Both the position numbers and the translations under genes were made by a program. Under the pieces are notes generated by a model. It was not told where the DNA came from. It saw only the letters and a program-made list of their open reading frames with translations, and ran no database searches. Positions 38,352 through 62,098 of a stretch of DNA of 64,000 nt are shown here, piece by piece. The DNA is from Actinomycetota bacterium (GTDB taxonomy: Bacteria; Actinomycetota; UBA4738; HRBIN12), in the NCBI GenBank assembly GCA_035490535.1, contig DATHCP010000087.1, positions 32,665 through 96,664 of the forward strand. Direction: 5' to 3'. Each line of letters opens with the position of its first letter. The first letter of the stretch is position 1.

Positions 38352-38357
38352 TTAGTT

Positions 38358-38370
38358 AGGAAAGTTTCCT
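38358..38370. promoter_or_regulatory. 13-bp palindrome AGGAAAGTTTCCT, candidate operator (copy 2)
   Basis: Identical to 31252-31264. It lies between eda and the ROK regulator gene, immediately downstream of the predicted regulator promoter. Confidence 0.55.
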
Positions 38371-38375
38371 TTGAG

Positions 38376-39584: not shown

Positions 39585-39660
39585 GCTTCCGAGCCCGACC
39601 CGCACGTATATCCGGGAAGCGAACGACGACCCGGGCGTTGCCCGGAGAGGAGGCAACGGG

Positions 39661-41034: not shown

Positions 41035-41045
41035 GAGGAGGGGCG

Positions 41046-42044: not shown

Positions 42045-42109
42045 CCGTCCCCCGCCCCGTCGGTCATCCGGGCGGCGCCGAGGTCCTCAAAGGCGTCGCG
42101 ATCGGGAAC

Positions 42110-42973: not shown

Positions 42974-43013
42974 GCTCCGCGCCCGGGACGGACCCGGAGG
43001 GACGGCGACACGG

Positions 43014-43958
43014 ATGCGGGTTGCGCTGTTCGGATGCGGATGGATCCAGGACTTCCACGCGCGCGCCGTGCGCGAGAGCGGCTCCGAGGTGGTCGTCGTG
43101 GCCAACCACCGGGAGGAGACCGCCCGCGCCTTCGCCGAGCGGCACGGGATCGAGCGGGTGACGACCGACTGGGAGTCGCTCGCCCGAGATCCAGAGGTCG
43201 ACGCCGCGGTCGTCTCGACGCCGAACGCCCTGCACGCGCCCCAGTCGGTGGCGCTCCTGGAGGGCGGGATCCCGGTGCTGGTGGAGAAGCCGATGGCCAC
43301 CGATCTCGCCGGCTGCGACGCGATGCTCGCGGCCTCTCGCTCCTCGGGCGCGCCGCTGATGGTCGCCCACTGCTGGCGGTTCCGGGACGAGGTGATCGCG
43401 CTGCGCGACCGGATCGCCGCCGGCGAGCTCGGCGAGGTCGTGAAGACGCGGGGCTACGGGGTCCACGTGGCGTGGGGCCCCTCCGGCTGGTTCGTCGATC
43501 CGGTCCTCGCGGGTGGCGGCGCCTTGGTCGATATGGGTGTCCACGCGATCGACACGGTCCGGTTCCTGCTCGGAGATCCGTCGGTGGAGCGCGTCTGTGC
43601 GGCGGTCGGGACGCGGTACGGTTCCTACGACGTGGACGACGACGCGGTCCTGCTGATCGGCTGGTCCCAGGGGACGACCTCCATCGTCGAATCCGGCTGG
43701 TGGCAGCCCCACGCGGAGGGACTCGAGGCGGAGACCGAGGTGTACGGCACCAGCGGCTACGCGCGCATCTTCCCGCGCGAGGCTCCGAGCGAGGACTACG
43801 AGCACTGCACCCAGCCGATGTATACGGCCCAGATGCGCGAGTTCCTGACCGCGATCGCCGAGGGTCGCCAGCCCCGCCCGTCGGGCGAGGACGGCCGCGT
43901 CGTGATGGACGTCGTCGCGCGCGCCTACGCCTCCGGCGCGGAGGCGGACGCGCCGTGA
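43014..43958 (+). CDS. Gfo/Idh/MocA family NAD(P)-dependent sugar oxidoreductase
   Basis: MRVALFGCGWIQDFHARAV Rossmann N-terminus and the VLVEKPMA motif. Confidence 0.85.
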   Translation: MRVALFGCGWIQDFHARAVRESGSEVVVVANHREETARAFAERHGIERVTTDWESLARDPEVDAAVVSTPNALHAPQSVALLEGGIPVLVEKPMATDLAGCDAMLAASRSSGAPLMVAHCWRFRDEVIALRDRIAAGELGEVVKTRGYGVHVAWGPSGWFVDPVLAGGGALVDMGVHAIDTVRFLLGDPSVERVCAAVGTRYGSYDVDDDAVLLIGWSQGTTSIVESGWWQPHAEGLEAETEVYGTSGYARIFPREAPSEDYEHCTQPMYTAQMREFLTAIAEGRQPRPSGEDGRVVMDVVARAYASGAEADAP

Positions 43959-44956
43959 GCGTGGCCCTGGGGGTCGACGGCGGCGGCCGCAAGACCTATG
44001 CGGTGGTGGTCGACGGCTCGGGGGAGCTGCTCGGCGCCGGCGCCGGCGGCTCCTCGAACTGGGAGACGGCGGGACTGGAGGGCGCCTGCGAGGCGGTCGC
44101 CGAGGCGGCGGACGGTGCGCTCGCGGCCGCCGGTCTGCGGCGCGGCGCGCTCGACGCCTCCGTGTTCGGATTGGCCGGCTTGGATTGGCCCTCCGACCTC
44201 GCGCGTCTCGAGGGCGTGATCGGGCCGCTCGGGTTCGGCGGACCGCAGCGGATCGTGAACGACGCCTTCGTCGCGCTCCGAGCCGGAACGATGCAGCCGT
44301 GGGGCGCCGTCGTGATCTCCGGCACCGGCACCGTCGCGGCCGGCCGCAATCCCGCCGGCGAGGAGTTCCGCACGATCGGCGAGGGGCGCGTCTTCGGCGA
44401 CTTCGGCAGCGAGTTCGACGTCTCCGAGCTCGCGGTGCGTGCGGTCGCCGACGCCTACACGGGCCGCGGGCCCTCCACGATGCTGACCGAGCTGATCTGC
44501 GAGCGGGCCGGCGTGGACGGCGCGGCGACGTTGCTCGAGCGCCTGAGCCGGCAGGACACCCGGCTGCGCTCGCCCGAGGTCGCCAACATGGCCCCGCTCG
44601 TCCTGGAGGCGACGGAACGCGGCGACCTGGTGGCACGAACGATCCTGGAGCAGATCGGCTCCTCGCTCGGCGACGCCGCGGGCCTTGTCGCCGGGCGTCT
44701 CGACATGGGCGACCTCGAGTTCGAGGTGGTCTGCGCCGGCAACCTGTTCCGCACGCCGAACCGCTACCTGATGGACCAGCTCGAGCTCGGCGTCCGGCGG
44801 ACCGCGCCGCGGGCCCGGCCCGAGGTGCTCACGACCCCGCCGGTCGTCGGCGCCGGGTTGATGGCGCTGGAGCTCGCGAGCCCCGCGATCAGCGCAGGCG
44901 CCTCGCTGCGGCTGGCCGGCGCGGCCGCGAGCCACTTCTGGGGCGCCGGCGTCTGA
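43955..44956 (+). CDS. BadF/BadG/BcrA/BcrD-type ATPase, second GlcNAc-kinase-like sugar kinase
   Basis: GTG 43955 is in a GTGA overlap. GVDGGGRKTYAVV and SGTGTVAAG motifs. Paralog of 28579-29619. Confidence 0.75.
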   Translation: MSVALGVDGGGRKTYAVVVDGSGELLGAGAGGSSNWETAGLEGACEAVAEAADGALAAAGLRRGALDASVFGLAGLDWPSDLARLEGVIGPLGFGGPQRIVNDAFVALRAGTMQPWGAVVISGTGTVAAGRNPAGEEFRTIGEGRVFGDFGSEFDVSELAVRAVADAYTGRGPSTMLTELICERAGVDGAATLLERLSRQDTRLRSPEVANMAPLVLEATERGDLVARTILEQIGSSLGDAAGLVAGRLDMGDLEFEVVCAGNLFRTPNRYLMDQLELGVRRTAPRARPEVLTTPPVVGAGLMALELASPAISAGASLRLAGAAASHFWGAGV

Positions 44957-49350: not shown

Positions 49351-49374
49351 GGAGCCCCTCTCCGGTTCGGACAG

Positions 49375-49467
49375 CGGAGGCGGACGGGAATCGAACCCGC
49401 CAGGGAGCTCGTCGCCCCCTCAACGGTTTTGAAGACCGCGGAGCCCACCAGGAACCCAGACGCCTCC
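49375..49467 (-). tRNA. selC: tRNA-Sec (anticodon UCA), 93 nt, CCA not encoded
   Basis: Read on the minus strand: acceptor GGAGGCG/CGCCTCC. Anticodon stem GCGGT/ACCGT with loop CUUCAAA (anticodon at 49432..49430). Long variable arm AGGGGGC..GCTCCCT. T arm GCGGG-TTCGATT-CCCGT. One extra nucleotide between the T stem and acceptor gives 13 stacked pairs. Discriminator is G. Confidence 0.7.
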
Positions 49468-50591: not shown

Positions 50592-51833
50592 CTAGTCCTG
50601 GATCGAGGTCCGCCCGCGGAAGCGGAACAGCGCCCCTTGCGGGAAGGCGTCCGTTCCCGCCCATCCGAACCCCGAACGCGCCATCGCCTGCACGAGCTCG
50701 CTCGACTGCTCCGGCGGGTCGCCCGGCTTGTTCGTGGCGGGGTTCAACACGATCGCCGCACCGAACGGACGCGCGGTCAGCGGCCCCTCGGGATCGGTCG
50801 GGGAGGCGGTCGCGACGAAGCACGGTCCGACGCCCGCCACGTCGGCGGCATGGCCCATCGTTTGCAGCCGCGTCATCGCCGAACGCAAGAGCCCGAGGAT
50901 CCTCTCGTTACAGGTGACCGTGCCGAGGACGGGCAGGCTGGTCGACGTGATGTGGTCCTGGATCCAGGCCGGGTCGATCCGGATCAGCCCCGGCGCCGCG
51001 GGATCCGGATACGCGGTGAACTCGCCGAACCGGCGCTTCAACAGCACGGGGGGCAGCTCGCCGTCGTTCGCACGCAGGTACGGCGTCTCCCCCGGCGAGC
51101 GGACCTCGACGACCGGATGCGGCACGCCGAGTGGGAGGTACTGCACCATCTTCTGCGCGAGCTCCTGGGCGGTGATCGTGGCGTTGGGCGCGACGTGGAA
51201 CAGCACGTACCGGTCATGGGTCACGCCGAGCTGCTGGCCGGTGGCGCGGTCCACCAGGAGCTCGTAGCCGCCCATCATCGCGTCCGGCAGGGTGCCCACG
51301 ACCTTGATGTCCACGCTTCCGTCGAAGGTGAGGGTCGCGCCGCGACGCAGCCCCCGCAGCTGGGCCTCCGACTCGGACAGGATCCCCTGGCCCGGCTGGA
51401 GCTCCGCCACCTGACCCCGTTCCGGCTGCGGCAGGAAGGAGGGGAAGCTCCGCAGGTCCACCCCGGTGGTGTCGATCGGGATCATGTAGGGCGCGGTCGG
51501 CGTGTCGATCGCCACGCCGGCGCCGTTCGTCGAACCGGTCATCCACGCGATGTCGGCCGCTGCCGTCGTGGTGTTGGTGACGGCCGGGATCGCCGTGAGG
51601 CTCGCGCCGAAGTCCTCCGGCACGCCGCCCGGCACCCAAGCGAGCCAGGCTTCCGGCGTCGTGACGACCGGGCTCGACGGGACGCTCGTGGGAGGTGGGC
51701 CCGTGGGCGCCCCCTCGCCGGTGCTCTTCGAGCCGACCCGGCCGGCGGCGTAGACCAGCGTCGTTCCGGCCACGACGATCACGACGAACGCGGTGATGCC
51801 GCGGATCAAGGCGCTGCGGGAGAGGTCGTCCAT
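50592..51833 (-). CDS. membrane-anchored M15-peptidase-like protein with all zinc ligands replaced (probable pseudoenzyme)
   Basis: N-terminal TM ITAFVVIVVAGTTLVYAA. Middle domain resembles a MacB/FtsX periplasmic domain. The C-terminal domain aligns with 53561-54799 but reads ARPFGAAIVLN and QGALFRF where the paralog has SQHAYGAAIDIN and DGMHFEY. Confidence 0.7.
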   Translation of the reverse strand: MDDLSRSALIRGITAFVVIVVAGTTLVYAAGRVGSKSTGEGAPTGPPPTSVPSSPVVTTPEAWLAWVPGGVPEDFGASLTAIPAVTNTTTAAADIAWMTGSTNGAGVAIDTPTAPYMIPIDTTGVDLRSFPSFLPQPERGQVAELQPGQGILSESEAQLRGLRRGATLTFDGSVDIKVVGTLPDAMMGGYELLVDRATGQQLGVTHDRYVLFHVAPNATITAQELAQKMVQYLPLGVPHPVVEVRSPGETPYLRANDGELPPVLLKRRFGEFTAYPDPAAPGLIRIDPAWIQDHITSTSLPVLGTVTCNERILGLLRSAMTRLQTMGHAADVAGVGPCFVATASPTDPEGPLTARPFGAAIVLNPATNKPGDPPEQSSELVQAMARSGFGWAGTDAFPQGALFRFRGRTSIQD

Positions 51834-51879
51834 GGCCTCGCCCGAGTCTATGCCGGGCCACCGCGCCGCCCCGGGAGGC

Positions 51880-52131
51880 TCAGCCCGACGCGGCCGGGTG
51901 CTCGAGGATGCCGGCCAGGCGCTCGGCGCGCTCGGCCGCGCGCAGTGGCGCGCCCTCGGCGACCGCGCGCGCGATCACCCGAAGTTCGCGCTCGATCGTG
52001 GGCGTGAGCGCCGCGGCCCGCTGATGGACGAGCGGATCGAGCCGCTCCACCGCGCGGTCGAGGCGACCGAACGCCCCCCCGGCGGCGTCGCGCCGCCTGC
52101 GGTAGCGCTCGAGCGAGATCACGCGTCCCAT
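51880..52131 (-). CDS. small hypothetical protein (83 aa, helical, Arg-rich)
   Basis: ATG 52131. Third positions are strongly G/C. It fits the 35-46 nt spacing of the surrounding same-strand genes. No recognisable motif. Confidence 0.35.
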   Translation of the reverse strand: MGRVISLERYRRRRDAAGGAFGRLDRAVERLDPLVHQRAAALTPTIERELRVIARAVAEGAPLRAAERAERLAGILEHPAASG

Positions 52132-52166
52132 GCCGGCCACCGTAGCGGCCGGGTCTGACACGCTCC

Positions 52167-53231
52167 TCAGGCGGAGACCGCGCGCACGCTGGTCACCGGC
52201 GCGAGCCTCGGGGCGACCGTGAACCACGGCCCGCCGGTGCTGCCGAAGACCTCGCCGCTCGTGGCCCCGAACCACAGGCTCAGGTCCTCTCCCGAGCCCG
52301 AGGTCCCGAAGGCCTGGCGCAGGATCGTGATCCACGCGTCGTGCGCAGGCAGCCCCTCGCCCGCGACCCACGACGCGCCGGCGTCCCGCGTGCCGAACAC
52401 GCGTACCGTCCCCTCGGGGGTGACGCGGTCCTCCGCGCCCACCAGCGGGATCACGAAGGCGCTGTCCGGATCGGCCGGATCGATCGCGAGCGGGAAGCCG
52501 AAGCCGCTCGGAAGTGGCGCGGCGATGTCGTTCCAGGTGATGCCGGCGTCGTCGCTCCGATACACGCTTCCGTGGAACTGCATGAACAGCCGCTCCGGCC
52601 GCAGGGGAGCGCGATGCATGTTATGGACGCAGAGCTGGTTCGTGCCCTCCCGCGCGTCCTCGGGCATGTACTCCGGAACGAGTCCGGTGAAGCCCGACCG
52701 CCACGACGCGCCCCCGTCCTCGGTCAGCCACACGCCCGCAGCCGACACGCCGATCGCCAGCCGGTCCGGGTGGCCCGGCCACGGACAGATCGAGTGCAGC
52801 GCCAGGCCGCCGGCGCCCGGCTGCCAATCGCCCTCGATCCGCTGGGCCCACAGCGCGTCGTTCAGCGACCAGGACTCGCCGCCGTCGGTGCTGACGAACA
52901 ACGCGGCCGGCGCGACGCCCGCGTAGAGCACGCCGTCGGCTTCGCCCGGCTGCACGATCCAGATCCGCTCGACCGCCTCGTCCTTCCCCTCCGGGAACGC
53001 GGGACCCGCCGCGGTTCGCCACTCCTCGGCCGTGACGTCGTCCGTCCACATCAGCCGGGGACCGTAGAACCCGCTGGTCACCGAGGCGAAGGTCCGGCCC
53101 GTCCGCGGATCTCGAACGGCGAACTCGACGACCTGTCCCGCGAACGCACGCGTCGTGACGCGGAACGTTCCCGGCCCCTCGCCCTGCAGGACGAACAGCC
53201 CTTTCTTCGTGCCGATCAAGAGCTCGTGCAT
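52167..53231 (-). CDS. BNR/Asp-box repeat beta-propeller protein (sialidase-fold, function unknown)
   Basis: Four Asp-boxes: STDGGESW, TEDGGASW, SDDAGITW and TRDAGASW. No signal peptide. ATG 53231 lies 1 nt after the upstream stop. Confidence 0.8.
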   Translation of the reverse strand: MHELLIGTKKGLFVLQGEGPGTFRVTTRAFAGQVVEFAVRDPRTGRTFASVTSGFYGPRLMWTDDVTAEEWRTAAGPAFPEGKDEAVERIWIVQPGEADGVLYAGVAPAALFVSTDGGESWSLNDALWAQRIEGDWQPGAGGLALHSICPWPGHPDRLAIGVSAAGVWLTEDGGASWRSGFTGLVPEYMPEDAREGTNQLCVHNMHRAPLRPERLFMQFHGSVYRSDDAGITWNDIAAPLPSGFGFPLAIDPADPDSAFVIPLVGAEDRVTPEGTVRVFGTRDAGASWVAGEGLPAHDAWITILRQAFGTSGSGEDLSLWFGATSGEVFGSTGGPWFTVAPRLAPVTSVRAVSA

Positions 53232-53232
53232 C

Positions 53233-53496
53233 TCATCCCCCTCCGCTGATCGACGGGAGGACCTGCAGGCGGTCCTCGGGCCGCACCGACGCGTCCTCGC
53301 GCACCGCTTCGCCGTTCACGAACACGTTCACATGGCGGCGGACCTTGCCGCGCTCGTCGAGGATCCAGCCGCTGGTCCGCGGCCATGCCCGCTCCAGCTC
53401 GCGAAGGACCTCGCCGACGGTGGCGCCGTCGAGACGGATCTCGCGGTTGCCGCCGGCCAGCTCGCGGAGCGGGGCGCGGAGCGCGACGAGGGGCAC
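53233..53496 (-). CDS. MoaD/ThiS-family ubiquitin-like beta-grasp protein ending in Gly-Gly-Gly
   Basis: 87 aa. ...VNVFVNGEAVREDASVRPEDRLQVLPSISGGG* follows the MoaD/ThiS pattern (hydrophobic core, C-terminal diglycine directly before the stop). Confidence 0.75.
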   Translation of the reverse strand: MPLVALRAPLRELAGGNREIRLDGATVGEVLRELERAWPRTSGWILDERGKVRRHVNVFVNGEAVREDASVRPEDRLQVLPSISGGG

Positions 53497-53560: not shown

Positions 53561-54799
53561 TCACGCCGGAGGTGGCTTCCCGTACTCGAAGTGCATCCCA
53601 TCGGGGATCAGGAAGTCCCCGCCCCAGTTGAAGCCCCAGCGTTCGAAGATCCGGACGATCCGCGGGTCCATCGTCGGTCTGCTCCCGTACGGGTTCTCGG
53701 GGGCGTTGATGTCGATCGCGGCGCCGTAGGCGTGTTGGGATGGAGGTGCGATCGTGGACCGCGCCACGGTCCGGGCGGCGTAGCAGCCCGAGTAGACGTG
53801 GATCTCGCCGCCGAGGCCAGCCGCCTGCACCTGGCCGAGCGCGCCGATCAGCATCGGGAACAGGGCGTCGTTGCACGTGACCTGGCCGAGGAGCGGGACG
53901 CTCCGCGTGGAGATGTGGGCGTCGTACCACGAGGTCGACATCGTGAGCTCGGCCGGGTCCGAGGTCTGCGGATACGCGGCGAACTCGCCGAACACCTCCT
54001 TCATCACGATCGGGGGATCGACGCCACTCGCCACCCGCACGAACCGCGTGCCGCCCGGGCGGACGGTGCGCAGCGGATCGTCGGCGGCGATCAGCCCGCG
54101 CACGTCGGCCGTGAATCGTGTGAGGGTCAGGTCGGGATCGCCGAGCGCGAGCAGGTACCGGTCGTGCGTGATCCCGAGTCGCGCGCCGACGTCGCGGCTC
54201 ACCAGCAGCTCCGACCAACCGACGTCGTCATCGGGTACCACGGCTCCCACCGTCACCGTCGTACCGCCGAACGTCATCGAGCCACCCACGCCGATCCTGC
54301 GCAGGTCGGCGGACCGCTGGCCGAGCACCGCATCGCCGGCGTCGAGCGCCTGCACGATCCGCGCCCGGTCCCCGCCGGGGACGAACGGCGCGTACGCGGT
54401 GGGGTCGACCGCGAACGCGTCGATCGGGATCGCGTACGGCGGCGAAGGCCGGTCGACGACGTTCCCGTCGGCGTCGCGGCTGGAGTTCATCCATAGGGTG
54501 TCGCCGGCGACGACGACGGTGGTCGTGAGTCCGTCGGCATGCACGATCCGGTTCCGGAAGCCGGCCGGGAATCCGCCGGGCATCCACGCGAGCCACGCCG
54601 GGACCCCGCCGTCCGGTGCGACCGGAACCGACGCGGAGCCCGACGCGGCCGGCGCAGCCGGGGTGGTCGGGGATGGCGCGCCGGCGACATCGGCGTCCCG
54701 CCCGGGGCGCAGCAGGACGACGAGCGCGAGCACGGCGACGCCGATCACGGCGACGAACGAACGCCGGCGGCGGACCTGTGAGCGGGTGACGTGCGACAT
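53561..54799 (-). CDS. membrane-anchored M15 family zinc D-Ala-D-Ala carboxypeptidase/endopeptidase-like protein
   Basis: N-terminal TM FVAVIGVAVLALVVLL. MacB/FtsX-periplasmic-like middle domain. Intact H-x6-D (SQHAYGAAIDIN) and D-x-x-H (PDGMHFEY) zinc/catalytic motifs. Confidence 0.8.
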   Translation of the reverse strand: MSHVTRSQVRRRRSFVAVIGVAVLALVVLLRPGRDADVAGAPSPTTPAAPAASGSASVPVAPDGGVPAWLAWMPGGFPAGFRNRIVHADGLTTTVVVAGDTLWMNSSRDADGNVVDRPSPPYAIPIDAFAVDPTAYAPFVPGGDRARIVQALDAGDAVLGQRSADLRRIGVGGSMTFGGTTVTVGAVVPDDDVGWSELLVSRDVGARLGITHDRYLLALGDPDLTLTRFTADVRGLIAADDPLRTVRPGGTRFVRVASGVDPPIVMKEVFGEFAAYPQTSDPAELTMSTSWYDAHISTRSVPLLGQVTCNDALFPMLIGALGQVQAAGLGGEIHVYSGCYAARTVARSTIAPPSQHAYGAAIDINAPENPYGSRPTMDPRIVRIFERWGFNWGGDFLIPDGMHFEYGKPPPA

Positions 54800-54838: not shown

Positions 54839-55312
54839 CTAGCGACGCAGGGCCCGGGCGAGGGCTTCCTCGAGCTCCTCGGCCGTTCTGCCCGATGCGG
54901 TCGCGAGGGCCGCCACGTCGCCGGCGCGCAGCGACACGCTCTCGGTCGGCGGCTCGCGTCGAAGGGAGCTGACCTGTCGGACGAATCCCGAGACCAATGC
55001 CCCCTCGGCGGAGCCGAGGGATTCGAGGGTCGTGAGGTCGATCTCGGCCTCCGGACGGCCTTCGGTGGCGCGGACGATCTCCGCGAGGATCCGGTCGGGC
55101 GGAACCTCGTACAGCTTGCACAGCAGGATGAAGCGCTCGAGGCTGATGTTCCGCTCGCCACGCTCGTAGCCGGCGACCGAGGTCGCCATGAACCGGCCCT
55201 CGGAGGCTGCACCGACGCCGCGCAGCGTCAAACCGCGACGCTGCCGCGCGCGACGGAGCGCTCGACCGATCTCGACCGCGAGAGGTTCTGGCTCCAACCG
55301 TTCCCTCACCAT
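54839..55312 (-). CDS. XRE family helix-turn-helix transcriptional regulator
   Basis: ATG 55312. HTH IGRALRRARQRRGLTLRGVGAASEGRFMATSVAGYERGERNISLERFILLCKLYEV. Near-consensus -10 TATACT on the minus strand at 55354..55349. Confidence 0.75.
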   Translation of the reverse strand: MVRERLEPEPLAVEIGRALRRARQRRGLTLRGVGAASEGRFMATSVAGYERGERNISLERFILLCKLYEVPPDRILAEIVRATEGRPEAEIDLTTLESLGSAEGALVSGFVRQVSSLRREPPTESVSLRAGDVAALATASGRTAEELEEALARALRR

Positions 55313-55694
55313 CCGACCTGCCCTGCGGGAAGGGGAAGCCTTCGGCAGAGTATATGAACGGCCGCGGGCCGCGCACCATCCCTTCGGGTGGTCATGGAGC
55401 GGCATCCGGGACGCGCTCCGACGCATCGCGGCCCTATCCCGGCCGCGTTCCGCGGTCGCGAACGGGCGCGGCCCGGAGGCATCGGGGGTCGCTCTGCGTC
55501 CGGATCGCGAACGGATCGTGAACGCTCAGGAGATGGGGGCTTGCAAGAACGCGCTCCGCGTCCTAGTGTCTGGCTACGTCCTTTGCGGTATCGGGACGTG
55601 GCTCATCGGCCGGGAGGGCACAGGTGAGGGCTCACCCTTCCAGTCGTGCACCGTTGGCAGTGGGGGACAACTGGCATCGCGAGGAGGGGTCGCT

Positions 55695-55805
55695 GTGAAG
55701 GCGCTCCTGGAGGGTGATGAGGTGCGTCTGAGCATCGAGATGCAACGCCCGCGGGGTACCGACGTCCGGTCGGAACGATGCGCGTTCGAGGGGTTGTTCC
55801 GATGA
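55695..55805 (+). CDS. candidate 36-aa upstream ORF translationally coupled to the nucleotide-sugar dehydrogenase
   Basis: GAGGAGGGG (55681-55689) lies 5-7 nt before GTG 55695. Stop TGA 55803-55805 overlaps ATG 55802 (ATGA). Confidence 0.3.
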   Translation: MKALLEGDEVRLSIEMQRPRGTDVRSERCAFEGLFR

Positions 55806-57118
55806 GCGCCGCCGGATCCACGAACGACCTTCCCGCCGCAGCCGCGCAGCGCACGGGTCGCGTTGCGGTCGTCGGCCAGGGGTACGTCGGGCTGACGTTG
55901 GCATCGGCCGCGGCCGCGGCCGGCTTCCCGGTCACCGGCATCGACAACGACGTCGCCCGGATCGACGCGCTCACGCGCGGAGAGTTGGCGGTTCCGGGCG
56001 TGGACCGTGTGACGTTCGATGCCGCGATCCAGAGCGGGGGCATCCGGTTCGCTGGATCGGCCGACGCGGTGGCCGATGCGGCGTTCATCTTCATCTGCGT
56101 GCCGACGCCGCTGCGCGATGGCGCGCCGGATCTGAGCTACGTTGAGGCCGCGGGCCGGTCCGTCGCCGCGCACCTGCGCGCCGGAGCGATGGTGGTGCTC
56201 GAGTCCACGACGTATCCGGGAACCACGGATCAGCTGCTCCAGCCGCTCCTCGAGCAGGGCTCGGGGCTGCGGGCGGGCGTGGACTTCCTGCTCGCCTATT
56301 CGCCCGAGCGGATCGATCCCGGGAGCGCCGAGTTCACGATGCGGAACACCCCGCGGGTGGTCGGCGGCACCACGCCGGAGGCCACCGACGCGGCGGTGGC
56401 GTTCTACGAGCAGCTCGTGGACAAGGTGTTCCCCGTGTCGTCCACGCGGACGGCCGAGACCGCGAAGCTGCTCGAGAACACGTTCCGGCACATCAACGTC
56501 GCGCTGGTGAACGAGCTGACGATGCTGACCCACGACCTCGACATCGACGTGTGGGAGGTCATCGACGCGGCCTCCACCAAGCCCTTCGGCTTCATGCCCT
56601 TCTATCCGGGCCCCGGGATCGGCGGGCACTGCATCCCGCTCGATCCGACGTACCTGTCATGGCAGGTCCGCCGGCAGACCGGCCGGCGCTTCGGCGTGCT
56701 CGAGGCGGCCCAGGACGTGAACGAGCGGATGCCGAACTACGTGGCCAGCCGGGTCGCCGAGATCCTGAACGACGTGGGCCGCGCGGTCCGCGGCAGCAAG
56801 ATCTTCGTCCTGGGTGTGACCTACAAGGCCGACGTGGGCGACGTGCGCGAGTCCCCATCCCTGATGGCGATGCAGGCCCTCTACCGCAAGGGCGCGGAGA
56901 TCTCCTTCCACGACCCCTTCATCGAGGAGGTGCCCCTGAACGGCGGTCGGATCCGGCGGACGGAGCTGGCCGAGGGCCTGGCCACGGCGGACCTGGTCCT
57001 GCTGCTCACGCCGCACAGCTCCTACGACGTGGACCAGATCGCGGAGCACGCGGCGCTCGTGTTCGACACGCGGAACGCCTACGGCGACGCGTCGCACGAC
57101 AACGTGATCCGCCTGTAA
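55802..57118 (+). CDS. nucleotide-sugar 6-dehydrogenase (UDP-GlcNAc/UDP-ManNAc dehydrogenase, WbpA/WecC-like)
   Basis: VAVVGQGYVGLTLA Rossmann motif and catalytic Cys in GIGGHCIPLDP. ATG 55802 (or 55778). Confidence 0.85.
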   Translation: MSAAGSTNDLPAAAAQRTGRVAVVGQGYVGLTLASAAAAAGFPVTGIDNDVARIDALTRGELAVPGVDRVTFDAAIQSGGIRFAGSADAVADAAFIFICVPTPLRDGAPDLSYVEAAGRSVAAHLRAGAMVVLESTTYPGTTDQLLQPLLEQGSGLRAGVDFLLAYSPERIDPGSAEFTMRNTPRVVGGTTPEATDAAVAFYEQLVDKVFPVSSTRTAETAKLLENTFRHINVALVNELTMLTHDLDIDVWEVIDAASTKPFGFMPFYPGPGIGGHCIPLDPTYLSWQVRRQTGRRFGVLEAAQDVNERMPNYVASRVAEILNDVGRAVRGSKIFVLGVTYKADVGDVRESPSLMAMQALYRKGAEISFHDPFIEEVPLNGGRIRRTELAEGLATADLVLLLTPHSSYDVDQIAEHAALVFDTRNAYGDASHDNVIRL

Positions 57119-57175
57119 GGAGCTGGTCCCTCGGGCGCGGTTCCGCCGCGGGTCGATCCGGGATCTCGGACGCGC

Positions 57176-59173
57176 TCAGCCCGCGGCGTCGGGCGGCACC
57201 GTCGTCACGATCGCGTCGGGGGCCGCGTGCGACAGATCGAGCATCGGCTCGGGCTCGCTGGTCCGCACGACGATCCGCGGCGTGGTCTCCACGGGAGGCG
57301 GTGCCAACCCGACCTGGGGGAAGTCCGGCACCAGCAGTCGCAGGCACTCGTCCAGCTTCCACCAGTCGCGACGCTCGGCCGCGCCGATCAACTCCTCGAT
57401 CATCGCGCGGCCTTCTTCGTCCTCGTCGCACTCGTGCGTGGCCATCATGATGTGCTCGAACGTCGTGCCCGACAGCTCTTCCTCGTGCGTGAAGAGCTCC
57501 TCATGCAGCTTCTCTCCAGGCCGCAGCCCCGTGTAGCGGATCTTCACGTCGTCCTCGTCCGCGCCGGCGAGCCGGATCATCTCCTTCGCCAGGTCGAGGA
57601 TCAGCACCGGGGTGCCCATGTCGAGGACGTAGACCGCGCCGTTCACGCCGAGCGCGCCCGCCTCGACGACGAGCCGGCTCGCCTCCGGGATCGTCATGAA
57701 GTAGCGGGTCATGCGGCGGTCGGTCAGCTTGATCGGACCGCCCGTGCGGATCTGCTCCTCGAAGATCGGCACGACCGAACCGCGGCTCCCGAGCACGTTG
57801 CCGAAGCGCACCGACGCGAACACTTGGTCCTGTTCGGCATGCGCGCCGACCATCCGAACGATCCGCTCGGCGAGGTGCTTCGTCACTCCGAGCATCGAGG
57901 CGGGATGGACGGCCTTGTCGGTGGAGACGTTCACGAACCGGGTGACGCCAGCCGCGAGGGCGGCCTCGGCGACGTTGCGCGTTCCCGCGACGTTGTTGAG
58001 GATCGCCTCATCGGGGTCTGCCTCCATCAGCGGCACGTGCTTGTGCGCCGCGGCATGGAACACGACCGACGGTCGGAAGCGCTCCATCACGTTGAGGACC
58101 TTGATGCGGTCGCGGATGTCACCGACCACGATCGTGAAGTCGAGCTCGGGGAGCGTGTTCTGGAGCTCGCGGCCGATGTCGTGCAGCGTGTTCTCGCCGT
58201 GCCCGAACAGGATGACCTTGCCGGGCCCCGCGCTCGCGATCTGCCGGACCAGCTCGGATCCGACCGAGCCGCCGGCGCCGGTGACGAGCGCGGTACGGCC
58301 TTCCAAGTAGGAGGGCGGGAGGTCCAGCGGAACCGGCTTGCGGCGCAAGAGGTCTTCGACCTTCACCGGCCGCAGGCCGGCGAGCTGGGCCTCGCCGAGG
58401 AGGACCTGTGTCACGCCCGGCAGGATCCGGCACGGAACGTCGGCCGCGCTCGCCACGTCGACCACCCGCTTGGTCGCGCGCCCTCCTGCGGCCGGCATCG
58501 AGATCAACACCTCGTCGACCTGGTGCTCCTTGACCACCTGCGGCAGGTCGTCGATGCCGCCGAGCACGTCCGTTCCGGCGATCTTCAGGCGGCGCTTCAC
58601 CGGGTCGTCATCGAGGTACCCCACGAGCTCCTTGCCGTGGTCGGGGTGGCGGCGGATCTCCCAGCCGAGGCGCGTGCCCGCGTCGCCGGCGCCGACGAGC
58701 AGCACCCGGCGCGGACCCGCGCGGTGCAGGCTGGTCTTCGTCTGCAACCGCCACTGACGCTCGGCGTACAGGCGCGCCAACACGCGGATCGCGGACATGC
58801 CGACGAGCGCGACGACACCTTCGATCAGCGGGACCGTCCGCGGGAAGAGGCCGGCCCGTGCGTACCAGACGAGCCCGATCCCGAACAGCACCGCGGTCCC
58901 CGTGACGACGGCTCCCACGACACGGAGCAGATCCTCGATCGTCACACGCTCCCACGCCTGACGCGGCAGACCGAACGCCAGCAACAGCACCGCCTTGATC
59001 GACATGCCGGCCAGCGCGTACAGCGGGATCAGCGTCCACATCTCGCCGATGCGGTTCGGCGCTCGCAGCGGGAAGGCGACCAATGCAGCAAGCGTCCAGA
59101 TCGTCAGATCGGTTGCGAACTTCGCCCGGAACCAGAAGCGTCCTTTCGGGCTGTCGTGCACGGAGCGCGTCAT
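57176..59173 (-). CDS. membrane-bound polysaccharide biosynthesis protein, CapD/WbpM/PglF-type UDP-sugar 4,6-dehydratase
   Basis: ATG 59173 behind GAAGGAA. Four N-terminal TM spans. LVTGAGGSVGSEL Rossmann motif. Polysacc_synt_2-like core. Confidence 0.85.
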   Translation of the reverse strand: MTRSVHDSPKGRFWFRAKFATDLTIWTLAALVAFPLRAPNRIGEMWTLIPLYALAGMSIKAVLLLAFGLPRQAWERVTIEDLLRVVGAVVTGTAVLFGIGLVWYARAGLFPRTVPLIEGVVALVGMSAIRVLARLYAERQWRLQTKTSLHRAGPRRVLLVGAGDAGTRLGWEIRRHPDHGKELVGYLDDDPVKRRLKIAGTDVLGGIDDLPQVVKEHQVDEVLISMPAAGGRATKRVVDVASAADVPCRILPGVTQVLLGEAQLAGLRPVKVEDLLRRKPVPLDLPPSYLEGRTALVTGAGGSVGSELVRQIASAGPGKVILFGHGENTLHDIGRELQNTLPELDFTIVVGDIRDRIKVLNVMERFRPSVVFHAAAHKHVPLMEADPDEAILNNVAGTRNVAEAALAAGVTRFVNVSTDKAVHPASMLGVTKHLAERIVRMVGAHAEQDQVFASVRFGNVLGSRGSVVPIFEEQIRTGGPIKLTDRRMTRYFMTIPEASRLVVEAGALGVNGAVYVLDMGTPVLILDLAKEMIRLAGADEDDVKIRYTGLRPGEKLHEELFTHEEELSGTTFEHIMMATHECDEDEEGRAMIEELIGAAERRDWWKLDECLRLLVPDFPQVGLAPPPVETTPRIVVRTSEPEPMLDLSHAAPDAIVTTVPPDAAG

Positions 59174-59355
59174 CGTGGAAGGTTCCTTCTCGTCAACACG
59201 ACCGGGGGGATACGCAAGGCGCGACTTTCGGCCGAAGGCGCGTCTGCGGCCGAGGTTATATCCTGCATGCGCTGTAGGCAAGACCCAGCTCGCGAACGTG
59301 CGACGTCGGATGGCCATCGGGCGGGCTGTGTCGGCCAGACGGAGGACAGCAGAGC

Positions 59356-60372
59356 ATGCAGAACGGAAGGGATGTCCGCGTCGCGGTCCTGGGTGCGGGC
59401 CGCTGGGGCCGGAACCTGGTCGCCAATCTGGACGCGCTGGGTGCTCTCGCCGCGGTGTCCGATCCGGACCCGGCGATCCGCGCCGAGCTCGTTGCCACGT
59501 ACGGACAACGGATCGCGATCAGCGCCGAACACGAGCGCGTGCTCACCGATCCGGCGCTGGATGCCGTGGTGATCGCGACCCCCGCGACCACCCACACCTC
59601 GCTCGCGATCGAGGCGGTCCGCGCAGGCAAGCACGTCTTCGTCGAGAAGCCGTTCACGCTGACGGTGGACGACGCCGAGCTGGTCGTGAAGGAGGCGGAG
59701 GCGGCCGGGCGGACGTTGATGGTCGGCCACCTGCTGCTCTACCAGCCGGCGATCGTGTGGATGCGGGAGTTCCTGCAGAGCGGCCGGCTGGGCTGGGTCG
59801 CGAGCCTCTACCAAGACCGGCTGAGCCTCGGAACGGTCCGCACCGTCGAGAACAGCCTGTGGAGCCTCGGCGTGCACGACGTCGCAGCGATCCTGTACCT
59901 CGAAGGACAGGAACCGATCCGCATCGCCACATGGGGCCAGGCGATCATCCAACCCGGCGTCCAAGACGACATGCACCTGCACATGCAGTTCGCGAACGGC
60001 GCGGAGGCGCACATCCACAACTCCTGGCTCTGGCCGGAGCGCCGCCGCAGGTTGACCGTCGTGGGGACCGAAGCGATGGCCGTGTACGACGAGCTGAACC
60101 AGACCGTGCAGTTGCACCGGCGTCGCGTGAACGCGAACCTCTCCGTGCAGGATGATGGGGGCGAGGTCGTGTTCCGCGGCGATCCGCAGCCGTTGCGTCA
60201 TGAACTCGAGCACTTCCTGACGTGCGTGCGCGACGGCCGCGAGCCGCGCTCCGGTGGCCCGAGCGCGATCGAGGTGATCCGGGTCCTCAGCCAGGCCGAC
60301 GCGCAGATGAAGGAGATCCGCGTCCTCGGGCAGACCAGCGCGCGGATGACGGGGATCGCGACCTCGGCATGA
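59356..60372 (+). CDS. Gfo/Idh/MocA oxidoreductase, WbpB/WlbA-like UDP-GlcNAcA 3-dehydrogenase
   Basis: [27 protein letters not shown] and VFVEKPFT motifs. Context next to WbpD- and WbpE-like genes. Confidence 0.8.
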
Positions 60373-60953
60373 GTGGGGTCTTCGTGCACCCGAGCGCGGT
60401 CGTCGACGACGGCGCTCGGATCGGCGCCGGATCGAAGGTCTGGCATTTCGCCCACGTGATGGCCGGCGCGTGCATCGGTCGCGACGTCAGCCTCGGGCAG
60501 AACGTCTTCGTTGCCGACGACGTCACGATCGGCGACGGGTGCAAGATCCAGAACAACGTGTCGATCTACCAGGGCGTGACGCTCGAGGAGCACGTCTTCT
60601 GCGGCCCGAGCATGGTGTTCACGAACGTGCGGAACCCTCGGGCGGCGTTCCCGACGCCGGAGGAACGGTACGCCGGGACGCTCGTGCGGCGCGGCGCCTC
60701 GATCGGGGCCAACGCGACGATCGTCTGCGGGATCACGGTCGGCACGGACGCGTTCATCGCCGCCGGCGCGGTCGTGACGAGGGACGTCCCCGATCACGCG
60801 TTGATGGCCGGTGTCCCTGCACGCCGGATCGGGTGGGCGTGCACGTGCGGCCGGATCCTCCGGATGGACGACCAGGGGCGCGCGGCCTGTGCGGAGTGCG
60901 GACGCCGGTACCGGCAGGCCGGCCCCGATGACCTGCAACGGGACGAGCCATGA
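60369..60953 (+). CDS. left-handed beta-helix N-acetyltransferase, WbpD/WlbB-like
   Basis: ATGA overlap. [45 protein letters not shown]...[16 protein letters not shown] closely follows the WlbB/WbpD hexapeptide pattern. Cys-rich C-terminal tail. Confidence 0.85.
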
Positions 60954-62098
60954 TGCCCGCCCGGGTCACGCACGTCACGAGCGTGCACGATGCGGACGAC
61001 CCGAGGATCAACAGTAAGGAGTGCCGGACGCTCGCGGCCGCGGGGTTCCGCGTCTCGCTCCTGGCGCCGGAGGGGTCGGTGCACGAGGACGGTCCCGTGT
61101 CGCTCGTTCCGCTGCCGGCGCAGCCTGGCCGGCTCCGCCGCATGACGCTCGGCAACGTGAGCGCGTTCCGCCGGGGCCTGCGGTTGCGGTCGCACGTCTA
61201 CCACCTCCACGATCCGGAGCTGTTCCCGACGGCCGTGGCGCTTCGCCTGGTGGGGCGCCGCGTCGTGATGGACGTCCACGAGGATCTCCCGGCCCAGATC
61301 CGGACGAAGACCTGGATCGCGCCCGCGCTCCGCCGGCCGATCGGCTGGCTGGCACGTCGGTGGGAGTGGGCGGTCGCGCGCATCGCGACGCGCGTGGTCG
61401 TCGCCGAGCCGGGCGTCTACGCACGCTTCCCGGCCGAGCGCGCCACGCTGATCCAGAACTTCCCGCGAAGCGACGAGTTCCCGCCGGCCTCGTCCACGCC
61501 GTACGGGGAGCGGCCCAACCACCTCGTGTACGTCGGCAGCATGAGCGAGGCCCGGGGGCTCTTCTCGATGATCCGGGCCGTCGACCGGTTGGATCCCGCG
61601 CTGGAGGCCAGGCTCCACTTGGCCGGACAGCTCTCGGGACCCCTGCGGGCGCGCGCGGAACAGGAGCCGGGGTGGCGTCTCGTCGTGTCGCGCGGATGGC
61701 TCGGCCGGGACGGCGTGGCCGACGTGCTCGGCGAGGCGCGGATCGGCATGGTCGTCCTGCACCCGCTGCCCAACTACGTGGATGCGCAGCCGACCAAGCT
61801 GTTCGAGTACATGATGGCGGGGCTCCCCGTGGTCGCATCGGACTTCCCGCGATGGCGCGAGATCATCGAGCCGGCCGGCTGTGGCCTGCTCGTCGATCCG
61901 ATGTCTGAGGACGCGATCGTCGCGGCCACGGCGTGGCTGCTGGAGCATCCGGAGGACGCGCGCGAGATGGGCGAGCGCGGCCGCGCCGAGGTCCTGCGCC
62001 GATACAGCTGGGATGCCGAGGGCGAGCGACTCGTCCGGATGTACGAGACGATGCTCGGTGCGCCGATGCGGGCGCCGAGCGCGGAGGGGGTCCGCTGA
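60950..62098 (+). CDS. glycosyltransferase family 4
   Basis: ATGA overlap. [16 protein letters not shown]-terminus. [21 protein letters not shown]-x7-E region. Confidence 0.8.

What the first reader, a model, noticed from the sequence alone, without database searches (positions are those of the whole stretch)
52167..53496. MoaD/ThiS-like protein ending in GGG coupled (1-nt gap) to a cytoplasmic BNR/Asp-box propeller, with no E1, JAMM or molybdopterin/thiamin genes nearby
The 87-aa beta-grasp protein has the exposed C-terminal diglycine used for adenylation and thiocarboxylation or conjugation. Nothing in the window encodes a MoeB/ThiF-type activating enzyme, MoaE, ThiG, CysM or a JAMM peptidase. 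Its stop (53233-53235) is separated by one base from the ATG of a 354-aa four-Asp-box propeller that lacks a signal peptide, so it is unlikely to be a secreted sialidase. Such tight coupling suggests the two proteins work as a pair, with the propeller as partner, target or scaffold for the GG protein. I am not aware of an assigned function.
Basis: partly seen in the sequence, partly recalled or inferred. Interest (0 to 1): 0.65.

Follow-up and report, generated by a model that had tools for sequence, protein, structure and literature searches.

The report
Ubiquitin-like sulfur-carrier protein paired with propeller
A small ubiquitin-like (MoaD/ThiS-type) protein and a seven-bladed propeller mislabelled "sialidase" form a two-gene unit, sometimes fused into one protein, that is conserved across many bacterial phyla including Pseudomonas aeruginosa and Ralstonia, and nobody has reported what it does.

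Summary
An 87-aa ThiS/MoaD-family gene (53233-53496, minus strand) is followed after one base by a 354-aa Asp-box propeller gene (52167-53231). The window holds no E1, JAMM, MoaE, ThiG or CysM gene. One correction: the conserved motif is ...SGG, and the third Gly is a variable tail, so the di-glycine is capped rather than exposed. The pairing is not chance. 68 of 75 assessable species-level genomes have an adjacent or fused intact GG-bearing ThiS-like gene. It lies upstream in Thermoleophilia and Proteobacteria and downstream in Acidobacteriota and Gemmatimonadota. At least 117 protein clusters are in-frame ThiS-propeller fusions, and all keep GG. One Ser/Thr-kinase-propeller fusion has a ThiS gene 8 nt downstream. 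No other neighbour recurs. The propeller belongs to the family of PDB 3B7F (function unknown), not to sialidases or GH74. It carries an invariant His146/His203/His220/Gln218/Arg/Lys/Trp set. Best reading (about 0.4): a sulfur-carrier protein plus its acceptor enzyme, analogous to MoaD-MoaE and its cleaved fusion MoaX. The carrier would be trimmed at GG and activated by enzymes encoded elsewhere. The substrate is unknown. This is a robust, uncharacterised module and a new variant of a known kind.

The parts
53233..53496 (-). ThiS/MoaD-family beta-grasp protein, 87 aa, GTG start, ends ...LPSISGG-G
   Evidence: ORF listed. Pfam ThiS E 4e-12. NCBIfam SAMP1 58.8 bits against cut-off 60, MoaD 24.6 against 66. 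Best PDB matches are SAMP1, CysO and a Thermus MoaD-related protein. 1343 homologues found.
53239..53244 (-). Codons of the invariant Gly85-Gly86 (GGA GGG). Their GGAGG also serves as the Shine-Dalgarno sequence, 8 nt upstream of the propeller ATG.
   Evidence: Sequence read. GG is invariant in all partners except one. The first Gly codon is GGA in 33/42 ThiS-upstream loci, against 4/21 ThiS-downstream loci and 1/8 fusions; Fisher p = 5e-7.
53236..53238 (-). Gly87, a non-conserved one-residue tail after GG
   Evidence: Tail length and sequence vary among homologues. The alignment to the terminal GG of SAMP1 and CysO ends at residue 86.
53232..53232 (-). Single-base spacer between the ThiS stop codon and the propeller start codon (translational coupling)
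   Evidence: Relatives have a 4-bp ATGA overlap or an in-frame fusion.
52167..53231 (-). Cytoplasmic seven-bladed Asp-box beta-propeller, 354 aa, of the PDB 3B7F (Reut_B4987) family
   Evidence: AF2 model with pLDDT 95.9 and pTM 0.93. Match to 3B7F: profile E 7.5e-123, TM 0.91. 9718 representative clusters.
52572..52826 (-). Segment holding the near-invariant residues Trp136, His146, Cys201 (Asp in Proteobacteria), His203, Gln218 and His220, the candidate axial metal- or ligand-binding site. Thr8, Lys10, Trp91, Arg269 and Arg305 lie elsewhere in the gene and are inferred to contribute to the same face.
   Evidence: Conservation of at least 90% in 51 diverse sequences. The residues are retained in ThiS-less and kinase-fused members and mostly in 3B7F. 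Placement on the top face is inferred from strand topology, not measured.
52368..52892 (-). Four canonical Asp-boxes (STDGGESW, TEDGGASW, SDDAGITW, TRDAGASW)
   Evidence: Pfam BNR hits.

Best explanation
The two genes encode a dedicated two-component system: a sulfur-carrier-type ubiquitin-like protein and its cognate acceptor protein. The acceptor is a cytoplasmic seven-bladed propeller, not a glycosidase.

Proposed mechanism:
1. The genes are co-translated in roughly equal amounts. The carrier's Gly-Gly codons (GGAGG) serve as the ribosome-binding site of the propeller gene, and sister lineages make one fused polypeptide. The sequence evidence is shown; the coupling itself is inferred.
2. 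The residue(s) or linker after GG are removed by a GG-specific peptidase encoded elsewhere. This is inferred. The precedent is the MoaD-MoaE fusion MoaX, which is cleaved at GG|S by a still unidentified mycobacterial protease.
3. The free GG carboxylate is adenylated and thiocarboxylated by a housekeeping MoeB/MoeZ-type E1-rhodanese acting in trans. This is inferred. The precedent is MoeZR, which serves both MoaD and CysO.
4. The thiocarboxylated tail docks on the propeller's conserved face (His146, His203, His220, Gln218, Arg269, Arg305, Lys10, Thr8, Trp91, Trp136). This face possibly holds a metal. There the sulfur is delivered to an unknown, probably anionic or sugar- or aromatic-like, substrate. 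This is inferred.
For: The pair is conserved. An intact adjacent or fused ThiS-like gene is present in 68 of 75 assessable GTDB species genomes. The set spans Thermoleophilia and other Actinomycetota, Acidobacteriota, Gemmatimonadota, Rokubacteria and a Nitrosopumilales MAG. The pair is also annotated in Ralstonia, Burkholderia, Mitsuaria and P. aeruginosa, and found unannotated in Cupriavidus metallidurans CH34. Gene order is inverted between clades while the linkage is kept.

Natural fusions are abundant. At least 117 clusters (defined at 90% identity) all keep ISGG, followed by a short linker of about 5 aa, [AS][DG][DQE][AT]E. More distant fusions also exist: P0242, P0265 and P0276.

Nothing else is linked. 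The most frequent neighbour family occurs in 11 of 83 loci, and the best nearest-neighbour Pfam family in 6 of 129.

GG is selected at the protein level, because the codons differ between arrangements.

The carrier is closest to SAMP1, archaeal-type MoaD and CysO.

Published precedents exist. MoaX cleavage at Gly82|Ser83 is required for activity (PMC4326299). MoeZR acts as an E1 in trans on MoaD and CysO (PMC3227635).

The propeller has a near-invariant polar cluster that is typical of an active site and is absent from sialidase or GH74 logic.

The AF2 model of a natural fusion gives two well-folded domains and a disordered GG linker (pLDDT below 50 for residues 81-87, pTM 0.78). This fits an exposed, cleavable tether rather than a rigid docked unit.
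Against: None of the roughly 90 loci examined has a linked E1, rhodanese or JAMM gene, so activation and trimming are pure inference.

Tails after GG are common and variable in the window's clade. This could mean that a free GG carboxylate is not needed.

Some members lack the partner: Streptomyces, Nonomuraea, Rhodobacter and Marivivens. The Microtetraspora partner ends in LPALV with no GG.

The kinase-propeller fusions suggest a sensing or binding domain rather than an enzyme.

No substrate, no metal and no docking geometry could be shown. The tools return no model coordinates, so the clustering of the conserved residues rests on topology reasoning alone.

Cys201 is replaced by Asp in Proteobacteria, so it is not an essential catalytic thiol.
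Confidence: 0.4

Rival explanations
1. The pair is a non-covalent receptor or regulator. The beta-grasp protein is a stable subunit or ligand of the propeller, and no adenylation or sulfur chemistry occurs. The propeller reads the Ubl or its tail, as the related Asp-box propellers sortilin and Ycf48 bind peptides. The complex acts in sensing or regulation. In some lineages it is wired directly to a Ser/Thr kinase.
For: A kinase-propeller fusion has a ThiS gene 8 nt downstream. Stable fusions with linkers of only 4-6 residues exist. Variable tails are tolerated. No E1 or JAMM gene is linked. Among the structural relatives are Asp-box propellers solved in complex with peptides: sortilin with neurotensin, Ycf48 with a D1 peptide, and DAIP with a thermolysin fragment (titles).
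Against: GG is invariant in more than 300 partners, including all fusions, although the neighbouring linker varies. Non-covalent beta-grasp subunits such as TmoB, RnfH and YukD do not conserve GG (general knowledge; Iyer et al. 2006). AF2 does not dock the domains or order the GG segment. By strand topology the propeller's N-terminus enters from the face opposite the conserved cluster (inference).
Confidence: 0.25
2. The small protein is a SAMP/TtuB/Urm1-like protein modifier. It is conjugated through its GG to lysines, and the propeller is its main target, adaptor or specificity factor.
For: The best NCBIfam match of all partners tested is SAMP1, at 58.8, 49 and 40.9 bits, just below the cut-off of 60. 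The closest solved structure is SAMP1. GG is conserved.
Against: No E1, E2 or deconjugase is linked. No PADLOC or Bil-type system matches. Bacterial ThiS/MoaD proteins with one dedicated neighbour are, in all characterised cases, sulfur donors to that neighbour (general knowledge). No conserved surface lysine target could be tested.
Confidence: 0.12
3. The propeller is itself the maturation enzyme for the small protein. It would act as a GG-specific peptidase or hydrolase, using the His cluster (a metallo-hydrolase-like site) to remove the tail or linker or to release adducts. The carrier then works elsewhere.
For: Tails and fusions need a protease, and none is linked. Three invariant His plus Gln resemble a metal-hydrolase site. 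Protease and substrate being encoded together would explain the strict pairing.
Against: About half of the species-level partners already end exactly in GG and still keep the propeller. ThiS-less propellers keep the full residue set. No similarity to any peptidase family was found.
Confidence: 0.08
4. The reading is ordinary. The small protein is the housekeeping MoaD or ThiS, the propeller is a sialidase or glycosidase, and they are adjacent by chance.
For: Database names: 'molybdopterin converting factor small subunit' and 'exo-alpha-sialidase'.
Against: The adjacency is conserved across phyla and in fusions. The MoaD equivalog model scores 24.6 against a cut-off of 66, and no MoaE is present. 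No GH33 domain hit is found. The fold has seven blades, whereas sialidases have six. GH74 needs two propellers. There is no signal peptide. P. aeruginosa and Ralstonia carry the pair in addition to their normal moaD and thiS (general knowledge).
Confidence: 0.03

Closest known systems
MoaD-MoaE molybdopterin synthase, including the fused MoaX of Mycobacterium tuberculosis
   Same: A small beta-grasp protein with a C-terminal GG is encoded next to its single dedicated partner. The two are occasionally fused into one polypeptide with GG retained and followed by a small residue. MoaX is cleaved at Gly82|Ser83 by an unknown host protease, and cleavage is required for activity (PMC4326299). The E1 is encoded elsewhere (PMC3227635).
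   Different: The partner is a seven-bladed Asp-box propeller, not the MoaE fold. The small protein fails the MoaD equivalog model. No Moco genes are linked. The substrate is unknown.
CysO-CysM (M. tuberculosis), HcyS-MetY (Wolinella) and QbsE thiocarboxylate systems
   Same: A sulfur-carrier protein delivers sulfide as a thiocarboxylate to one partner enzyme. CysO is among the closest solved structures (3dwg_C). HcyS and QbsE carry extra residues after GG that must be trimmed (my knowledge of Begley-lab work; not checked here).
   Different: Those operons carry the JAMM peptidase, and often the E1, next to the carrier. Here nothing else is linked. Their partners are PLP enzymes, not propellers.
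SAMP1 (Haloferax) and archaeal-type MoaD (TIGR01687)
   Same: These give the best profile match (58.8 bits) and the best PDB match. They share the R/D-x-H-[VI]-N-V-x-x-N-G-E region and the terminal GG.
   Different: The score is below the SAMP1 cut-off. The organism is bacterial. There is a capped C-terminus and a dedicated propeller partner. Conjugation was not tested.
PDB 3B7F, Reut_B4987 of Ralstonia eutropha JMP134 (structural genomics, 'putative glycosyl hydrolase with BNR repeats')
   Same: Same family: profile E 7.5e-123, 30% identity, TM 0.91. It is a single seven-bladed Asp-box propeller and keeps His146, Cys201, Gln218, His220 and Arg305.
   Different: No function is assigned; it is listed as 'not known' in PMC2716378. 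His203 is not aligned in 3B7F. Its genomic partner was not examined here.
GH74 xyloglucanases, sortilin Vps10 domain, Ycf48/HCF136 and DAIP (other Asp-box propellers)
   Same: They share the Asp-box propeller architecture and are the next-best sequence and fold matches (E about 1e-20 to 1e-5; TM 0.52-0.6). Some were solved in complex with peptides.
   Different: GH74 needs two tandem propellers forming a cleft. Sortilin has ten blades. None is paired with a ThiS-like protein. The conserved His/Gln/Arg set is specific to this family.

Membership tests
ThiS/MoaD beta-grasp superfamily (Pfam PF02597) | Match to the family HMM above the gathering score | tested here: met
   46.8 bits against a cut-off of 22.5, covering residues 6-86
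ThiS/MoaD beta-grasp superfamily (Pfam PF02597) | Gly-Gly as the last two residues, giving a free carboxylate for adenylation | tested here: not met
   GG is present at residues 85-86 and aligns with the terminal GG of SAMP1 and CysO. The ORF continues with Gly87, so trimming would be needed. Relatives have tails of 0-4 residues or a fused propeller.
ThiS/MoaD beta-grasp superfamily (Pfam PF02597) | Adenylation and thiocarboxylation by a MoeB/ThiF-type E1 | not testable with these tools
   No E1 is present in the window or in about 90 related loci. The whole genome is not available.
MoaD proper (TIGR01682, molybdopterin synthase small subunit) | Equivalog score above cut-off, and a MoaE partner or Moco operon | tested here: not met
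   24.6 bits against a cut-off of 66.15. No MoaE or other Moco gene is in the window.
SAMP1 (NF041918) | Equivalog score above cut-off | tested here: not met
   58.8 bits against a cut-off of 60 for the window protein; 49 and 40.9 bits for relatives. It is the closest family but not a member.
Exo-alpha-sialidase (GH33) | Six-bladed propeller with an Arg triad, a Tyr/Glu nucleophile pair and an acid/base Asp, and a match to sialidase domain models | tested here: not met
   Only generic BNR repeat and partial Sortilin-Vps10 hits were found. The fold has seven blades, as in 3B7F. No conserved Tyr or Glu is among the positions that are at least 80% conserved. Sialidase PDB matches have E of only about 1e-5.
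GH74 xyloglucanase | Two tandem seven-bladed propellers forming the catalytic cleft | tested here: not met
   The protein is a single 354-aa propeller. The matches cover one GH74 domain only.
3B7F / Reut_B4987 family of single Asp-box propellers (function unknown) | Full-length sequence and fold match | tested here: met
   Profile E 7.5e-123 over positions 4-357. phmmer E 4.5e-41. Foldseek E 4e-27, TM 0.91/0.88.
Ycf48/HCF136 (COG4447 'photosystem II stability/assembly factor-like', the JGI name) | Full-length similarity to Ycf48 | tested here: not met
   E about 1e-5 to 1e-6 on short stretches, TM 0.52. NCBIfam Ycf48 scores 15-21 bits against a cut-off of 326.
Ubl-based anti-phage systems (Bil and others in PADLOC) | Match to defence-system models; linked E1, E2 and JAB genes | tested here: not met
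   No PADLOC hit for either protein or for the flanking genes. No E1, E2 or JAB gene is nearby.

The most novel reading that the evidence does not exclude
The propeller is a new class of thiocarboxylate-dependent sulfur-insertion enzyme. It would be the first such enzyme built on a beta-propeller, with an axial His3/Gln (metal) centre. Fed by its private ubiquitin-like carrier, it would make a still unknown thiolated metabolite or cofactor in soil bacteria and in P. aeruginosa, Ralstonia and Burkholderia. In some Acidobacteria-type lineages the same module is coupled to Ser/Thr-kinase signalling.
Probability: 0.3. Interest if true: 0.8.

Novelty: new variant of a known kind. Interest (0 to 1): 0.62.

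Why it matters
Every characterised bacterial ThiS/MoaD-type carrier with one dedicated partner has defined a sulfur-insertion pathway: thiamin, Moco, cysteine, methionine, thio-siderophores, 2-thiouridine and thiosugars. This module has a partner of an entirely different fold and no linked pathway genes. It spans at least six phyla and thousands of protein clusters. It is present in genetically tractable organisms: the probable P. aeruginosa PA1355/PA1356, R. solanacearum, C. metallidurans and Burkholderia. It also already has a crystal structure (3B7F) with no assigned function. Solving it would either add a new sulfur-transfer reaction or reveal a bacterial ubiquitin-like 'reader' module. 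It would also correct a widespread 'exo-alpha-sialidase' misannotation, which has already led one paper to treat PA1356 as an adhesion or biofilm factor (PMC11538994). The fused and tailed forms give a second natural system, after MoaX, for finding the unidentified GG-specific protease.

Tried and rejected
- Riboswitch or other RNA leader that might name the pathway: an Rfam scan of 11 diverse loci and of the whole window found nothing near the pair. The only hits were RNase P in L078 and tRNA-Sec in the window.
- Defence-system reading: no PADLOC hits.
- Promoter and terminator scan of 50.4-55.8 kb: nothing usable, with no terminator-like sites.
- Expression evidence: only peat-metagenome DNA runs hold the sequence, and no RNA run does (one search failed).
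- Surrogate for AlphaFold-Multimer: AF2 on a natural fusion (P0398 with 129-row alignment A4) folded both domains. It gave no confident inter-domain geometry (pTM 0.78, linker pLDDT below 50), so the docking site of the GG tail could not be established. The tools return no coordinates, so the spatial clustering of the conserved residues could not be measured.
- Conserved third gene: all-against-all clustering of neighbour ORFs and a Pfam census of 129 nearest neighbours found none. Anecdotal thiol, redox or electrophile-stress neighbours in Proteobacteria (AhpCF, GST, DJ-1, VOC, thioredoxin-like, EgtBD) are too inconsistent to use.
- P0089 (447 aa) looked like a fusion but is an internal duplication of the propeller, probably an assembly artefact. 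P0313 and several other 'long' representatives are frameshifted junk.
- Cys201 as a catalytic thiol or thioester site: rejected, because it is Asp in Ralstonia and Pseudomonas.
- Literature: searches on MoaD, BNR, sulfur carrier, propeller, 3B7F and PA1355/PA1356 found no study of the pair.
- The first search for related loci attempt with the 51-sequence alignment failed because the sequences were too diverse. It was repeated with 7 sequences.
Full report
OBSERVATION. The minus strand of this 72% GC window carries an 87-aa ORF (53233-53496, GTG start, ending ...LPSISGGG, stop TGA at 53233-53235). One spacer base (53232) follows, then a 354-aa ORF (ATG at 53229-53231, stop at 52167-52169). Both ORFs have GC3 of about 0.90, as expected for real genes here. 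The identical arrangement occurs in three independent assemblies from peat metagenomes.

The small protein matches Pfam ThiS (46.8 bits against a cut-off of 22.5). The large one has four canonical Asp-boxes (aa 114, 170, 226, 281) and two degenerate ones. It has no signal peptide, because residues 2-8 are already a propeller strand.

I scanned essentially every coding-like ORF of the window against Pfam. No ThiF/MoeB, JAB, MoaE, ThiG or CysM-type domain was found.

CORRECTION ON THE C-TERMINUS. Profile and PDB alignments put the canonical terminal Gly-Gly at residues 85-86. Among 120 close homologues the invariant motif is LPSI[ST]GG, followed by a variable tail of 2 aa (71 cases), 1 aa (32) or none (7). 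Examples are GGS, GGA, GGG, GGSR, GGER and GGAA. The third Gly is therefore a non-conserved cap, and the di-glycine is not exposed in the primary translation product.

WHAT THE TWO PROTEINS ARE. The small protein is nearest to the SAMP1, archaeal-MoaD and CysO branch of the beta-grasp carriers:
- NCBIfam SAMP1 scores 58.8 bits against a cut-off of 60.
- The MoaD equivalog scores only 24.6 against 66.
- The best solved relatives are SAMP1, a Thermus MoaD-related protein, a ThiS/MoaD family protein (4n6e_B) and M. tuberculosis CysO.

The large protein gives a very confident AF2 model (pLDDT 95.9, pTM 0.93). It is a clear member of the family of PDB 3B7F (Reut_B4987 of Ralstonia eutropha). That structure is a structural-genomics seven-bladed Asp-box propeller whose function is listed as unknown. 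The profile match has E 7.5e-123, 30% identity and TM 0.91.

The next matches are single domains of GH74 xyloglucanases, then DAIP, sortilin and Ycf48, all far weaker. The protein does not fit the sialidase definition, which needs six blades, an Arg triad and a Tyr/Glu pair. It does not fit GH74, which needs two propellers. The database names 'exo-alpha-sialidase' and 'photosystem II assembly factor-like' are therefore generic Asp-box labels. No curated NCBIfam model reaches its cut-off for either protein.

THE PAIR IS A CONSERVED MODULE. The propeller family is large: 9718 clusters at 50% identity with E below 1e-3, and 292 below 1e-30.

A scan of one genome per GTDB species returned 80 loci. 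An HMM of the small protein finds a ThiS-like ORF in two positions:
- Directly upstream of the propeller in the Thermoleophilia/Actinomycetota clade that contains the window.
- Directly downstream in the roughly 40%-identical Acidobacteriota, Gemmatimonadota, Rokubacteria and Acidimicrobiales clade.

Of the 80 loci, five end too close to the gene to judge. Of the remaining 75, 68 have an intact partner with GG. One partner is frameshifted (L047), one lacks GG (Microtetraspora, ending LPALV), and five have none.

Annotated records show the same pair ('MoaD/ThiS family protein' plus 'exo-alpha-sialidase') in several Proteobacteria. These are the Ralstonia solanacearum megaplasmid, Burkholderia, Mitsuaria and P. 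aeruginosa. In P. aeruginosa its position next to PmpM suggests PA1355/PA1356, which is my inference. These partners end exactly in ...QALSGG. In the unannotated Cupriavidus metallidurans CH34 record, the HMM finds a partner ORF upstream of the propeller that also ends ...QALSGG. Two Rhodobacterales and two Streptomyces have the propeller alone.

Nothing else is conserved around the pair. The next most frequent neighbour family is present in 11 of 83 loci. A Pfam census of the 129 nearest neighbours peaks at 6. No E1, rhodanese or JAMM family appears among the most frequent families.

FUSIONS. Eight of the GTDB loci encode ThiS and the propeller as one in-frame ORF. A protein search seeded with one of them returned at least 117 distinct clusters (at 90% identity) of fusion proteins about 440 aa long.

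All of these fusions keep ISGG. The linker is short, mostly 5 residues, and follows the pattern [A/S]-[D/G]-[D/Q/E]-[A/T]-E before the invariant LLVGT(K/R)KG strand. More distant fusions with different linkers also exist: P0265 at 41% identity, P0242 and P0276.

On a rough NJ tree the fused forms are a basal grade of the clade that contains the window's unfused form. The unfused 'tail + Met + X' (here G + M + H before the conserved Glu3) has nearly the same length as the fusion linker. The tails are therefore best seen as half-linkers left by fusion or fission.

A third architecture is a Ser/Thr kinase fused N-terminally to the propeller (P0257). It is followed 8 nt later by a ThiS gene ending in SGG.

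TRANSLATIONAL COUPLING. In the window the carrier ends AGC GGA GGG GGA TGA g ATG. The Gly codons form GGAGG 8 nt upstream of the propeller start.

Across loci the first Gly codon is the otherwise rare GGA in 33 of 42 'ThiS-upstream, unfused' cases. It is GGA in only 4 of 21 'downstream' cases and 1 of 8 fusions (Fisher p = 5e-7). The GG codons therefore double as the Shine-Dalgarno sequence of the partner gene. The amino-acid GG is conserved whatever the codons are, so it is selected at the protein level.

THE PROPELLER'S CONSERVED SITE. In 51 sequences with 31-75% identity to the window protein, the non-Asp-box residues conserved at about 85% or more are Thr8, Lys10, Asp41, Trp91, Trp136, His146, His203, Gln218, His220, Arg269 and Arg305. 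They are kept in ThiS-less and kinase-fused members. Cys201 is Asp in Proteobacteria, so it is not essential.

From the strand order in the model, His146 and His203 open the innermost strands of adjacent blades. His220 and Gln218 end a B strand. Thr8 and Lys10, Arg269 and Arg305 sit in B-C or D-A loops. By standard propeller topology all of these lie on the same ('top') face near the axis.

This arrangement looks like a metal- or anion-binding active site. The four-His iron centre of carotenoid oxygenase propellers is a comparable case (my knowledge). This placement is an inference, because the tools give no coordinates.

FUSION MODEL. AF2 on a natural fusion (129-row alignment) folds both domains. 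Residues 81-87 (SGG plus linker) stay below pLDDT 50, and pTM is 0.78. No fixed docking is predicted. The linker looks like an exposed tether.

MECHANISM. The best-supported reading (about 0.4) is a sulfur-carrier protein with a dedicated acceptor enzyme, analogous to MoaD-MoaE, ThiS-ThiG and CysO-CysM. The steps are equimolar coupled synthesis, trimming after GG, activation by a trans-encoded MoeB/MoeZ-type E1, and delivery of the thiocarboxylate to a substrate held at the His/Arg/Trp site.

The closest precedent is MoaX of M. tuberculosis. It is a MoaD-MoaE fusion that must be cleaved between Gly82 and Ser83 by a still unidentified protease (PMC4326299). MoeZR also shows that one distant E1 can serve several carriers in Actinobacteria (PMC3227635).

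What is shown: the linkage, the fusions, the GG invariance, the coupling signal, the family placements and the conserved residue set. What is inferred: trimming, adenylation, sulfur transfer, the metal and the substrate.

RIVALS.
(a) A non-covalent receptor or regulator pair (0.25). It is favoured by the kinase fusions, the tolerated tails, the lack of linked E1 or JAMM genes, and structural relatives solved with bound peptides. It is disfavoured by strict GG conservation and the undocked AF2 linker.
(b) A SAMP/TtuB-like protein modifier with the propeller as target or adaptor (0.12).
(c) The propeller as the GG-specific maturation hydrolase (0.08). It is disfavoured because half of the partners already end in GG.
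(d) Housekeeping MoaD plus a sialidase adjacent by chance (0.03). This is effectively refuted.

NOVELTY. I found no paper describing the pair. The two large surveys of prokaryotic beta-grasp neighbourhoods do not mention a propeller, BNR or sialidase partner. 3B7F is cited only as a fold example. PA1356 appears once, taken at face value as a sialidase. The module is a new variant of a known kind (carrier plus dedicated partner) with a partner fold not seen before in that role. If the propeller proves to be a reader rather than an enzyme, it would be further from known systems.

LIMITS. There is no whole genome, no expression data, no model coordinates and no biochemical data. Gene calls in related loci were made with a simple GC3 filter. 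The tree is a quick NJ tree. The literature search covers open-access text only.

Noticed in passing
window 49374-49467 (-): A selenocysteine tRNA gene (anticodon TCA) lies immediately downstream of the GMC oxidoreductase gene, about 2.7 kb from the pair. Rfam tRNA-Sec scores 72.6 bits and ARAGORN agrees. No SelA, SelB or SelD domains were found among the window ORFs scanned.
   Followed up: partly
window 53561-54799 (-) and 50592-51833 (-): The pair is sandwiched between two paralogous genes of about 412 aa with an N-terminal hydrophobic segment (32% identity, E 3e-66). The upstream copy matches Peptidase_M15_4 and keeps the metal and catalytic motif residues (QHAYGAAID...GMHFEY). In the downstream copy they are replaced (ARPFGAAIV...GALFRF) and it has no Pfam hit, so it is likely a pseudoenzyme. 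The arrangement is lineage-specific (also seen in L004), not part of the conserved module.
   Followed up: partly
window 51880-52131 (-): An 83-aa ORF lies between the propeller and the second M15-like gene. It is conserved at 59% identity at the same relative position in L004 and has no Pfam or PADLOC hit. The overlapping plus-strand ORF 51793-52158 has coding-like GC3 but is probably its antisense shadow.
   Followed up: partly
window 54839-55426 (-): A BldD-like regulator (HTH_31 plus BldD-like C-terminal domain) lies upstream of the first M15-like gene.
   Followed up: no
L091 1050-3453 (protein P0257): A 704-aa Ser/Thr kinase fused to the propeller, with no transmembrane segment between the domains, is followed 8 nt later by a 93-aa ThiS-like gene ending in SGG. 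This third architecture of the module hints at a signalling role.
   Followed up: partly
L072 7066-7374 (Microtetraspora niveoalba): The ThiS-like ORF downstream of the propeller ends in ...VYVLPALV with no Gly-Gly. Streptomyces and Nonomuraea propellers (L085, L088, L069) and two Rhodobacterales (L094, L096) have no adjacent partner at all, yet they keep all conserved propeller residues.
   Followed up: partly
L094 (Rhodobacter sp. CZR27), L095, L093, L089, L087: In Proteobacteria the module often sits near thiol, redox or electrophile-stress genes. Examples are egtB-egtD divergently adjacent, ahpCF, DJ-1/PfpI and cysS, thioredoxin-family/VOC/YciI, and GST/RidA/MBL-fold hydrolase/hppD. The pattern is anecdotal and not statistically tested.
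   Followed up: no
window 55778-63998 and 27385-44000: The wider neighbourhood is rich in sugar and polysaccharide genes: UDP-glucose dehydrogenase, a Polysacc_synt_2 dehydratase, GFO/IDH/MocA oxidoreductases, a hexapeptide acyltransferase, GT4, two DegT aminotransferases, two GH4, GH9, and ROK and sugar ABC transporter genes. None of these is conserved next to the pair in other genomes.
   Followed up: partly
P0089 (447 aa homologue): This apparent long homologue is an internal tandem duplication of about 90 aa of the propeller, most likely an assembly artefact rather than a fusion.
   Followed up: yes
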